64,000 nucleotides of DNA from Amoebidium appalachense (lineage: Eukaryota > Protista > Ichthyosporea). The stretch covers positions 10,198,101 to 10,262,100 of the forward strand of contig CAVNZM010000003.1 of NCBI GenBank assembly GCA_963693365.1. Reading direction: 5' to 3'. The translations under genes and the position numbers were made by a program. Every line of letters starts with the position of its first letter. Within the stretch, counting starts at the first letter, position 1. Below the pieces are notes generated by a model. That model saw only the letters and a list, made by a program, of their open reading frames with translations, had not been told where the DNA came from and ran no database searches. Below, in pieces: positions 1 to 22,295 of the stretch.

Positions 1-297
1 CCACCTGTTTGCCTTTGAGTAACGCGGCATAAAAAACAGATCGGCAGCCACGCTGTTTGGCCGTGCTGTGGTGGTGAGGTAGTCCTTCCTCTCGATACGA
101 TGGGGGGCGAGCACCTCCTTGAGGGATTCCTGCTGCCCGGTGTTTCTTCTGGACAGGTAGGCACGCACGGCCGGTTGCCCTACCCTCTTGTCTTTTGCTT
201 TTGCACGCCGCCACAGTGCCTGCACGGTGGGGGGGAGCTTGAAGGTGGCGTAGGTCTCCTCAATCACCTGCTCAATGCCCTTGTCTCTGGCCACCAT
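1..297 (-). CDS. Retroviral-type (RVE/DDE) integrase, N-terminal 99 codons; runs off the window edge
   Basis: Manual translation from ATG at 297 (context ACCACCATGG) is open to base 1: MVARDKGIEQVIEETYATFKLPPTVQALWRRAKAKDKRVGQPAVRAYLSRR...RPNSVAADLFFMPRYSKANRW. The end matches the Polinton integrase pattern ADLxxMxxYSxxN holding the first catalytic Asp. Confidence 0.75.
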   Translation of the reverse strand, partial: MVARDKGIEQVIEETYATFKLPPTVQALWRRAKAKDKRVGQPAVRAYLSRRNTGQQESLKEVLAPHRIERKDYLTTTARPNSVAADLFFMPRYSKANRW

Positions 298-318
298 GGT
301 GGTTTCCTGTGCTCGCTA

Positions 319-894
319 CTAGTCGGTTGACACTTTCTCCTCGGGCACCCTTCTTGGCCTGCGGGTGTTGGTGGTCTTTCTGGTCGTTTTTTTGGCCTTG
401 GGGGCAGGGGGTGCCTGGAGCTTGATGGGGTGGTCGGGGATGAGGGGGTGTGGGTGCAATGGGGTGACGTCCTTTTCCGTGTCCGTGCTGCCTGTGCTTG
501 AGGCCATACCCTCATCATCGTCGAGTAGGGTGAGCACGGCGGATTGTAGCTCTTGTGGTGGGGGAGGGGGTGACTGGGGTGGGGAGGGGAAGGCAAAGAG
601 GGGCTCAAAGGGGGGTGTAGGGGAGAGGAGGTCGTGGGGGAAAGGGGTGTCTGGCCGGGGGGAGGGGGTGGGGTGCTCGTGCAGTAGCACCTCCCTGATG
701 GTGCTTGCATTCTCTTTCAACCACTCTGTAAAGGGTCTCCACTCTAGCCCCTTTTCTGTGCAAACCAACATCTCCCCTTCCTTGGGCGGGTGTTTTGGGA
801 ACACGAGGTCGTAGGCTTCAGTAGATGGGTGGGCTAGCACACCCACGTACCCGCCTGCACGCGTGAGCAGATTGAGCCTGGTTACGTTAGACAT
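319..894 (-). CDS. Fibre-family paralog 3: shared N-terminal module plus Pro-rich/basic tail
   Basis: N-terminus GGYVGVLAHPSTEAYDLVFPKHPPKEGEMLVCTEKGLEW aligns with the N-termini of the ORFs starting at 3717 and 5317. Confidence 0.6.
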   Translation of the reverse strand: MSNVTRLNLLTRAGGYVGVLAHPSTEAYDLVFPKHPPKEGEMLVCTEKGLEWRPFTEWLKENASTIREVLLHEHPTPSPRPDTPFPHDLLSPTPPFEPLFAFPSPPQSPPPPPQELQSAVLTLLDDDEGMASSTGSTDTEKDVTPLHPHPLIPDHPIKLQAPPAPKAKKTTRKTTNTRRPRRVPEEKVSTD

Positions 895-945
895 CTTGGT
901 CTTGTTTTTCCCTTTTATTATGGTTGCACATTTTTTCGTACGGAG

Positions 946-1705
946 ATGGTAGTAGGCAACTCAGTTGTGAGAATGATTGTCGACCTTGCACGTATATATT
1001 TTACCACCTGCTGTGCCATCATGTGTGTTGCACTCGTGGTGGCGTCCTACGGCACAGCCGTACTCATACCGGAACTTGCCAAACGTAATGTTTTGGCTCA
1101 TCATCCTACCCCTCACAGGTGTGGTCATGTGCCAGGCACAATGGGTGGCGTATGCCTGGCTCGACGTGGACACCCACCCTGACGTGGCCGGGCACTGTGT
1201 GATGTGGGCACCCTACTGGCTGGGCTCGTGGCTGTATGTGGCCTCCCCCCTCGCCTACATGCTGGCAGCAGCGTGCTGGGCCCGATCCATGCGTGTGACG
1301 ACCACGTTGTTCTTCCCACGGGCCGTGGCGTACATGGTGTGTGCCTCCCTCCTCCCCCTAAGTGCCCTCTATGGCATGACGTGCGTGTTTGAACCGTCGG
1401 TGTTTGGCTACGTGTTTCTTGTGTTGAGGGGCGTGCTGGCGTGTGCCACCCTCGTCTGTGCACGGTACATGCTCTCCCTGTCCGTGCCCGTGCTCACCAG
1501 GAACATTGTGCTGTGCGTGTGGGTGCATGCAGGCCTTGCACTGGCAGGCATTGTGTTTGACGAGCTCCACTGGAACTTGTGGGAGTTTGGGTTTTTGGAG
1601 AACGGGTTTCTGACCACGTTGGGATACACACTGCTCGCCTGCTGCCTGCTTGCCCTCTGGTACCTCATACTCTACTGCATGGACGTGCTGGGCCCCTACA
1701 CGTAG
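946..1705 (+). CDS. Seven-transmembrane protein, split by a +1 frameshift near 1081
   Basis: ORF 946-1182 supplies one hydrophobic helix (IYFTTCCAIMCVALVVASYG). ORF 977-1705 supplies six more from NVMFWLII onward. Removing one A from GCCAAACGTAATG joins them into ~253 aa. Confidence 0.6.
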
Positions 1706-21500: not shown

Positions 21501-21739
21501 CTTGAATGGTAACCTTAGATCTCAGGCTGTAATCTTATAAATCTCAAGTATCAATCTAATTAATAATTACTAGGCTAAGCCTGGCTGTGCCAGGGCAACG
21601 CCTCAATAAAGAACAGTATGCAAAATAACAAGCCTGTGCCTGTGCAATAAATCTCCAAAGCAAACATCTTGCAAAAAACAACGTCGGTACATGTTTGTGT
21701 GTGTGTGTGTGTGTGACCGCGGCGGCTGCCTGTGTACCT

Positions 21740-21950
21740 AAGGCGTCCAATAAGAGACCCAGATTGACCGATCCGGGCGCTCATTGGACGCCTTGGGGAT
21801 GGAATGTGCTGTCCTTAATGCTCATTGGACGCCTTGTGCGGCAATTGGCTTTTTGGAGCCGAATTATCATTGGCCGCCCTGCGCAACCGTAATAGCATTG
21901 GACGCCTTGTACAAGGAATTCAGGATTCGAATTCCCATTGGACGCCTTGC
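21740..21950. repeat. Subterminal array of CATTGGACGCCTTG (5 direct copies, 1 inverted)
   Basis: Copies at 21782, 21823, 21868 (variant), 21896, 21936; inverted AAGGCGTCCAAT at 21740. Each contains CCAAT on one strand; upstream of pPolB. Confidence 0.85.
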
Positions 21951-22216
21951 GCAAACCTTCGCATTCCTTTGATCCGCACTTGTGTACATGTACGCACCAC
22001 ATGTACGCGTACACGTACGCGTACACGTGACACGCCCTCTCTCTCTCTTTAATTGTTTAATCATTTAATTAAAACCACGTGCTCTGCACGTGTTTTACAC
22101 ACACACAGTGTGTGTGCACGTGCTCATGTACACATATCCACCCATATCACATATATCCCATATCGCGATATGTGTACACAGATATCACATATCTCATATT
22201 CACATATCCCATATCC

Positions 22217-22295
22217 TAAGGGGTGCGGGACCGCGTGAATGTGACGTCACTTGTGACGTCACCATTCACGGGGTGCCGCGCCCCTTATTGTAGTA
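22217..22295. promoter_or_regulatory. Terminal inverted repeat/hairpin with twin CRE palindromes; putative replication origin
   Basis: TAAGGGGTGCGGGACCGCGTGAATGTGACGTCAC-TT-GTGACGTCACCATTCACGGGGTGCCGCGCCCCTTA is a near-perfect 71-bp palindrome. It is followed by TTGTAGTA and preceded by a CATATC-rich tract (22131-22216). Confidence 0.7.

What the first reader, a model, noticed from the sequence alone, without database searches (positions are those of the whole stretch)
1..22295. Integrated Polinton-like virus carrying its own NCLDV-type late transcription factor (VLTF3)
Seen: integrase, pPolB, ATPase, MCP and penton motifs together with a VLTF3-like ORF (14527-15408) directly downstream of pPolB. 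Known: VLTF3 is a core Nucleocytoviricota late factor and is not part of the classical Maverick gene set. Inference: a small integrating virus that runs its own early/late programme, either redirecting host Pol II or tapping a co-infecting giant virus's transcription machinery. I cannot tell whether this lineage is already catalogued.
Basis: partly seen in the sequence, partly recalled or inferred. Interest (0 to 1): 0.85.

Follow-up and report, generated by a model that had tools for sequence, protein, structure and literature searches.

The report
Integrated protist virus with giant-virus activator
This is a multi-copy small DNA virus inserted in what is likely a single-celled relative of animals, and it carries a giant-virus late-gene factor (VLTF3) that likely steers the host's own nuclear RNA polymerase to its capsid genes; the combination is real but has already been published for Amoebidium.

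Summary
Core observation holds. ORF 14527-15408 is VLTF3 (Pfam above cut-off). pPolB (frameshifted twice in this copy), the A32 ATPase and a double-jelly-roll capsid are confirmed. Integrase and penton rest on weak motifs. The element ends at 22294, is multi-copy in three organism labels, inserts at several sites, and VLTF3 is covered in 4 of 4 runs, so it is no one-off insertion.

It is not new. Sarre et al. 2024 (PMC11244446) describe ~30-kb Amoebidium 'adintoviruses' with VLTF3, capsids and PolB, silenced by methylation; VLTF3 is also reported in coral polintoviruses and Zephyr PLVs. The host is probably Amoebidium or kin (about 0.8, inferred): nearest named capsid is Sphaeroforma's, and the element is depleted in CGC/GCG, Amoebidium's methylation context.

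Host Pol II is favoured over a giant-virus factory: a free relative with VLTF3 has tiny spliceosomal introns in its capsid and ATPase genes. Additions: the capsid falls outside the sampled Maverick capsids, so the 'adintovirus' label covers only the polymerase; a candidate AAAAAT upstream motif; CGC/GCG avoidance in the virus but not in host exons.

The parts
1..297 (-). 5' part of a probable retroviral-type integrase, cut by the window edge just after the putative first catalytic Asp
   Evidence: weak: E 0.15, top of 961 ORFs, 1 of 500 shuffles ties; hhalign 33%
319..894 (-). Pro-rich ORF, no family; AAAAAT upstream
1088..1705 (+). hydrophobic, probably multi-pass membrane protein, no family
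   Evidence: sequence; no Pfam hit
1708..4271 (-). three ORFs of no known family (1708-2838, 3028-3717, 3849-4271)
4271..5317 (-). fibre-like protein with coiled-coil repeats
   Evidence: repeats seen in sequence; only coiled-coil-type Pfam hits; role inferred
5381..6469 (+). candidate minor capsid protein (penton), unconfirmed
   Evidence: pairwise E 0.022; no support
7816..8052 (+). 78-aa Cys-rich ORF, possible zinc finger
   Evidence: no Pfam hit
8086..8859 (+). A32-like packaging ATPase
   Evidence: Pfam Pox_A32 E 2.7e-9 over cut-off
8843..10612 (+). double-jelly-roll major capsid protein of an aquatic PLV family; nearest named relative from Sphaeroforma arctica
11665..13914 (+). 749-aa Pro-rich protein; the free relative G003 also has a Pro-rich ORF between its capsid genes and VLTF3
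14527..15408 (-). VLTF3: conserved C-terminal domain; N-terminal Cys region only partly matches a giant-virus VLTF3
15864..21500 (-). protein-primed DNA polymerase B, broken into three frames in this copy
21501..22294 (.). right terminal region, presumed TIR, ending TTATTGTAGT; 7 CCAAT/ATTGG words and two TGACGTCA palindromes (22242, 22254)
   Evidence: end fixed by other insertions and unoccupied sites; motif counts against shuffles
22295..64000 (.). host flank: intron-rich and microsatellite-rich; class C GPCR exons, one resembling a maltodextrin-binding protein; a formin

Best explanation
The element is an integrated, multi-copy Polinton-like virus that likely lives in the nucleus of an Amoebidium-like ichthyosporean, where its VLTF3 is predicted to act with host RNA polymerase II to switch on capsid and packaging genes. 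Shown: gene set, exact right end, several insertion sites, VLTF3 in related copies. Inferred steps: (1) the integrase inserts the linear genome; (2) host methylation keeps it silent (shown for Amoebidium adintoviruses in PMC11244446, not for this copy); (3) when silencing lifts, host factors binding CRE- and CCAAT-like words near the terminus start pPolB transcription; (4) pPolB copies the genome by protein priming; (5) VLTF3 activates a later gene set, with AAAAAT as candidate promoter word; (6) the ATPase fills DJR capsids. This copy has a broken polymerase and would need a sibling copy.
For: VLTF3 family match. No RNA polymerase gene among 21 ORFs scanned. Free relative G003 (same MCP family at 313 bits, VLTF3 over cut-off, pPolB, inverted ends) has two 20-nt GT..AG gaps in its MCP gene with contiguous profile positions 8-124, 125-413, 410-450, one holding TACTAAC, and a 23-nt GTAAGT..AG gap that keeps the ATPase frame (read by eye): its late genes need the spliceosome. 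Medusavirus and ariadnaviruses keep VLTF3 without RNA polymerase (passages), and Amoebidium's giant viruses are placed near Medusavirus. Terminal region: 2 CRE palindromes against 0.017 in shuffles, 7 CCAAT words against 2.5. AAAAAT in 7 of 20 upstream windows against 0.91, 0 of 2000 shuffles reach 7. CGC/GCG o/e 0.54, below all 68 comparison loci (lowest 0.72); C at silent C/T sites falls from 0.83-0.91 to 0.14-0.44 where it would make GCG or CGC. Demethylation alone reactivated 32% of Amoebidium adintovirus genes.
Against: No expression data for this element. The window's own genes have no introns, and G003 is distant (VLTF3 21% identical), so its nuclear life need not carry over. In Amoebidium, demethylation did not turn on capsid genes or give particles, which fits a missing helper as well as a missing late switch. 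Host exons show no CGC/GCG depletion (1.14), which a simple methylation-decay story does not predict. AAAAAT was picked by eye after the fact, two of seven hits include the start codon, and one is upstream of VLTF3 itself. Terminal words lie in repeats, so counts are not independent. Host identity is indirect; a search with a host exon found nothing. No VLTF2 was found.
Confidence: 0.62

Rival explanations
1. Virophage-like life: the element is transcribed by a co-infecting giant virus's machinery, and VLTF3 adapts that machinery to its late promoters.
For: Amoebidium holds many giant-virus insertions and the authors raise the virophage idea. Capsid genes stayed off after demethylation. Some PLVs are virophages.
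Against: Introns in the late genes of a VLTF3-bearing relative. The giant viruses reported in Amoebidium sit near Medusavirus, which lacks RNA polymerase; whether they do too was not checked. A parasite of a factory would find VLTF3 already there (inference).
Confidence: 0.17
2. Decoy or interference: the divergent VLTF3 hinders a giant virus's late transcription and so protects the host, while the element's genes use plain host promoters.
For: The N-terminal Cys region aligns poorly to a giant-virus VLTF3 while the C-terminal domain is kept, as in a dominant-negative form. PLVs that reduce giant-virus growth are in print (search listing).
Against: G003, with no integrase match, also keeps a VLTF3 with a poorly matching N-terminus, so the short form is not special to integrated copies. 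No direct test.
Confidence: 0.11
3. Passenger: VLTF3 was picked up from a giant virus and does little.
For: Patchy: about 30% of two Zephyr clusters, a subset of coral elements, absent from G001, which may be a fragment. [quoted passage not shown]
Against: Intact 293-aa frame with GC3 0.79 and the same CGC/GCG bias as the other genes (0.63), so long residence; present in near and diverged copies in 4 of 4 runs.
Confidence: 0.1

Closest known systems
Amoebidium 'adintoviruses' (Sarre et al. 2024, PMC11244446; abstract, section 6, passages, supplement legends; figures not seen)
   Same: Integrated, multi-copy, polymorphic; VLTF3, capsid proteins and a PolB closest to adintoviruses; about 30 kb when whole. 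CGC/GCG depletion matches that host's methylation context.
   Different: No Dam methyltransferase in the 22.3 kb seen (left end missing). No sequence-level match could be made. The paper classifies by PolB; here the capsid falls outside the sampled Maverick capsids.
Maverick/Polinton = adintovirus (Polintoviricetes; PMC8502044, one passage; 10.64898/2026.06.19.733378, section 5)
   Same: pPolB 28-37% identical to Polinton-type enzymes, all 15 organism-named hits of 120 listed being animals; probable RVE integrase; terminal integration.
   Different: MCP separated from 7 Maverick-type MCPs by a long branch; no cysteine protease found in the part seen; end reads 5'-ACTAC rather than the 5'-AG recalled for Polintons; pPolB is a deep, unresolved branch.
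Zephyrvirus cluster of NCLDV-related PLVs (10.64898/2026.06.19.733378, section 6)
   Same: VLTF3 in part of the group, pPolB among its replicases, large lipase ORF in about half. G001, of the window's MCP family, has a 1307-aa lipase-like ORF plus A22, Dam-like and YqaJ genes. Top fold hits of the MCP are mostly NCLDV capsids.
   Different: No endogenous Zephyr member or host is reported there. Membership untested: their profiles are in closed supplements. The fold libraries hold far more NCLDV than Polinton capsids.
Coral polintoviruses with VLTF3 (PMC11131425, section 8, citing Krupovic and Koonin 2016, not read)
   Same: Endogenous polintoviruses carrying VLTF3.
   Different: Animal hosts; kinship of the VLTF3 genes not tested.
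Mriyaviricetes (PMC11253617, passages)
   Same: Small genome with VLTF3, MCP and ATPase.
   Different: Mriyaviruses have VLTF2, RuvC and HUH and no integrase; this element has pPolB and integrates.

Membership tests
Amoebidium adintoviruses | VLTF3 | tested here: met
Amoebidium adintoviruses | PolB closest to adintovirus/Polinton enzymes | tested here: met
   tree position unresolved
Amoebidium adintoviruses | major and minor capsid proteins | tested here: inconclusive
   MCP met; minor capsid unconfirmed
Amoebidium adintoviruses | Dam methyltransferase | tested here: inconclusive
   none among 21 ORFs; left end outside the window
Amoebidium adintoviruses | host is Amoebidium | tested here: inconclusive
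   indirect only; host exon search empty
Amoebidium adintoviruses | about 30 kb between terminal repeats | not testable with these tools
   no genome held
Maverick/Polinton (Polintoviricetes) | protein-primed PolB | tested here: met
Maverick/Polinton (Polintoviricetes) | RVE integrase | tested here: inconclusive
   insertion at several sites is shown
Maverick/Polinton (Polintoviricetes) | MCP within Maverick groups | tested here: not met
   outside 9 and 7 Maverick-type MCPs in two trees; small sample, unrooted, neighbours chosen by likeness to the window, no AU test
Maverick/Polinton (Polintoviricetes) | adenain-like cysteine protease | tested here: inconclusive
   no Pfam hit or motif in 22.3 kb; left end missing
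Maverick/Polinton (Polintoviricetes) | TIRs and 5-6-bp TSD | not testable with these tools
   only one end in the window
Zephyrvirus PLVs | MCP hit to the Zephr4/Zephy5 profiles | not testable with these tools
Zephyrvirus PLVs | VLTF3 or large lipase ORF in members of the MCP family | tested here: met
   G003 VLTF3; G001 lipase-like ORF below Pfam cut-off; 2 relatives only
Mriyaviricetes | VLTF2, RuvC, HUH, no integrase | tested here: not met
   none among 21 ORFs; the element integrates
Virophage (functional class) | replication depends on a giant virus | not testable with these tools
   needs infection data

The most novel reading that the evidence does not exclude
The Amoebidium-type 'adintoviruses' are chimaeras: a Polinton-type polymerase and integrase joined to the capsid module of the NCLDV-related Zephyr PLVs, for which no host or endogenous member is reported. 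VLTF3 would be an old part of that capsid lineage that drives late genes through host Pol II at an AAAAAT word with no viral polymerase and no VLTF2, in a virus that has purged its host's preferred methylation motif. That would be the smallest system, in a culturable protist, for asking what VLTF3 does.
Probability: 0.25. Interest if true: 0.65.

Novelty: already known. Interest (0 to 1): 0.3.

Why it matters
The headline, an integrated Polinton-like virus with VLTF3, is in print, so it ranks low as a discovery. It still bears on an open point: VLTF3 is a near-universal giant-virus gene and has been called diagnostic of that phylum (PMC11253617), yet how it acts in viruses without RNA polymerase is unclear. 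A 30-kb element with VLTF3 as its only recognised transcription factor would make that testable, and placing its capsid could give a host to an orphan PLV group.

Tried and rejected
Single-sequence VLTF3 model: pLDDT 40; its fold search gave VLTF3 entries at ranks 1, 2 and 7 but nothing under E 0.001: not used as evidence. Word-based homologue search with VLTF3: 0 of 476 candidates; host exon: 0 of 67. No close loci for MCP or VLTF3 in viral or metagenome contigs. Pfam on 92 MCP homologues and PDB with their profile: no capsid family. PHROGs: only the ATPase. First two integrase profiles (3 sequences) gave nothing. ATPase tree uninformative and lacked the two relatives' ATPases. No RNA holder was laid; the run search marked none as RNA on record, which is no evidence on expression. 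An animal host, suggested at first by the microsatellites, was set aside as less likely, not excluded. Papers with no hit for the terms asked: PMC3671162, PMC10120064, PMC4642659. Earlier scan notes by place and sequence: none.

Full report
Observation. Bases 1-22294 are a gene-dense block of 61% GC that ends sharply against an intron-rich, microsatellite-rich flank of 52% GC. Of 21 ORFs scanned against Pfam, three viral families pass the cut-off: Pox_VLTF3 (14527-15408, E 6.5e-9), Pox_A32 and DNA_pol_B_2; a fourth pass, on the fibre-like ORF, is a coiled-coil match. VLTF3 is backed by the Atlas (0.97) and by 27% identity over 158 aa to a giant-virus VLTF3. The 589-aa ORF has no Pfam hit but folds as a double jelly roll (pLDDT 77; best PDB match an iridovirus capsid, E 3e-14). 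The polymerase lies in three frames with breaks near 18.3 and 18.1 kb; contigs of other runs vary by indels in that stretch, so the break is specific to this copy or a read error. Integrase and penton are not confirmed.

Integration and copies. Twenty of 24 listed runs hold part of 8000-16000; organism labels A, B and C hold 45-57% of the sampled words. Laid on 2500-22450, four runs cover 29-30 of 30 bins, with near and diverged variants. The VLTF3 bins are covered in 4 of 4, and a joint from 14440 to 14527 in 4 of 4 ties a variant VLTF3 end to the DNA on its left. None of the 15 joints shown skips the gene; 15 more are not shown. At the right end, contigs leave the window after 22294 or 22295 into other flanks in 3 of 4 runs, and in 4 of 4 the flank from 22295 continues leftward into other DNA: an unoccupied allele or another copy of a host repeat. 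No listed piece crosses this junction (26 of 83 shown). The TSD could not be read.

Host (inferred, about 0.8 Amoebidium or close kin). The nearest named capsid is from Sphaeroforma arctica (38%; 1 of the 20 hits looked up carried an organism name), in a five-row group with support 89-90. CGC/GCG is the rarest trinucleotide of the element, lower than in all 68 comparison loci, and the loss holds at silent sites after controlling for codon type. Sarre et al. report CGC/GCG as the hypermethylated context in Amoebidium, and no DNA methylation in the other ichthyosporeans tested (section 6). Against: host exons are not depleted (1.14 over 5.1 kb), and a host exon found no homologue. A flank GPCR exon resembles a maltodextrin-binding protein (E 0.008), a fusion I recall from non-animal eukaryotes.

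What is known. PMC11244446 describes compact hypermethylated Amoebidium regions with VLTF3, Dam, minor and major capsid and PolB closest to adintovirus, about 30 kb, 44 in the reference, polymorphic between isolates; 32% of their genes woke on demethylation, capsid genes did not. Its supplement says VLTF3 was probably taken from a giant virus (figures not seen). VLTF3 is also reported in coral polintoviruses, in a MELD figure legend and in about 30% of two Zephyr PLV clusters, for which no endogenous example was found. Closed bioRxiv supplements may already place this capsid family.

The polymerase is Polinton-like (all 15 organism-named hits of 120 listed are animals; deep unresolved branch in a quick 48-row tree). 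The capsid is not Maverick-like: the family profile scores two IMG/VR contigs at 350 and 313 bits and Maverick-type capsids at 54 or less, and 16 family members are parted from 7 Maverick-type capsids by a branch of 1.38 with SH-aLRT 99. Limits: neighbours were chosen by likeness to the window, 14 of 150 hits entered the second tree, it is unrooted, and no AU test was run. One relative, G003, is a 19,988-bp record with inverted ends, VLTF3, pPolB and no rve match. The other, G001, has A22, Dam-like, YqaJ and a large lipase-like ORF but no VLTF3. Both fit the Zephyr description; membership is untested. The two VLTF3s are only 21% identical and did not match in a second run, so shared descent and separate capture both remain open.

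Mechanism. G003's capsid and ATPase genes carry 20-23-nt GT..AG introns, so a VLTF3-bearing virus of this capsid family makes its late mRNA in the nucleus. Giant viruses without RNA polymerase keep VLTF3. The window's terminus holds CRE- and CCAAT-like words above shuffled levels, and AAAAAT precedes 7 of 20 genes, among them MCP, the fibre and VLTF3 itself (chosen after the fact). I therefore favour host Pol II with VLTF3 as late activator (0.62) over a giant-virus factory (0.17), a decoy (0.11) or a passenger (0.10). No step of the transcription model is shown for this element. I found no report of CGC/GCG depletion in these viruses or of introns in PLV capsid genes, on one in-paper search and one library search read as listing only; that is thin.

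Papers seen: PMC11244446 (abstract, section 6, passages, supplement legends); PMC11131425 (section 8); 10.64898/2026.06.19.733378 (sections 5-7); passages only of PMC8502044, PMC11253617, PMC8400408, PMC5294986, PMC12945077, 10.1101/2022.07.28.501842, 10.64898/2026.05.21.726589, 10.64898/2026.08.29.747986, 10.64898/2026.10.13.758929; no passage found in PMC3671162, PMC10120064, PMC4642659. Krupovic and Koonin 2016 only as cited.

Verdict. Real, but already known in kind and probably in person; interest 0.3. The capsid placement and the Pol II question are the parts worth following.

Noticed in passing
L112:6549-6568 and 7664-7683; L111:5462-5484 (G003): A 20-kb PLV record with inverted ends has tiny 20-23-nt spliceosomal introns in its capsid and ATPase genes, one with a TACTAAC branch word; this points to a host with very short introns.
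   Followed up: partly
window 1-22294: CGC/GCG depleted to 0.54 in the virus but not in host exons (1.14): avoidance of the host methylase motif, or faster decay during viral replication.
   Followed up: partly
window 1708-2838: The C-terminus of this 376-aa ORF looks by eye like the helical pre-toxin or membrane-active segments recalled from polymorphic-toxin and viral entry proteins; no Pfam hit.
   Followed up: no
window about 3750-5300: Other copies diverge or run into other sequence around the fibre and the ORF after it: possibly a swappable attachment module.
   Followed up: no
L001 and L113 (G001): 24.7-kb contig of the same capsid family with AdoMet decarboxylase, A22-like resolvase, Dam-like methylase, YqaJ and a 1307-aa lipase-like protein; no polymerase was evident among the ORFs listed.
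   Followed up: partly
window 28600-36100 (-) and 49100-58500 (+): Host class C GPCR exons with a sugar-binding-protein-like outer domain, and a formin; introns full of long G/C runs and GT repeats.
   Followed up: partly
window 22295-22400: The insertion site occurs in several sequence variants in two runs, so the target may itself be a host repeat.
   Followed up: no
L006, L008: Contigs binned as giant viruses that carry pPolB next to a 1100-1170-aa protein weakly matching the capsid profile: possibly mis-binned PLVs.
   Followed up: no
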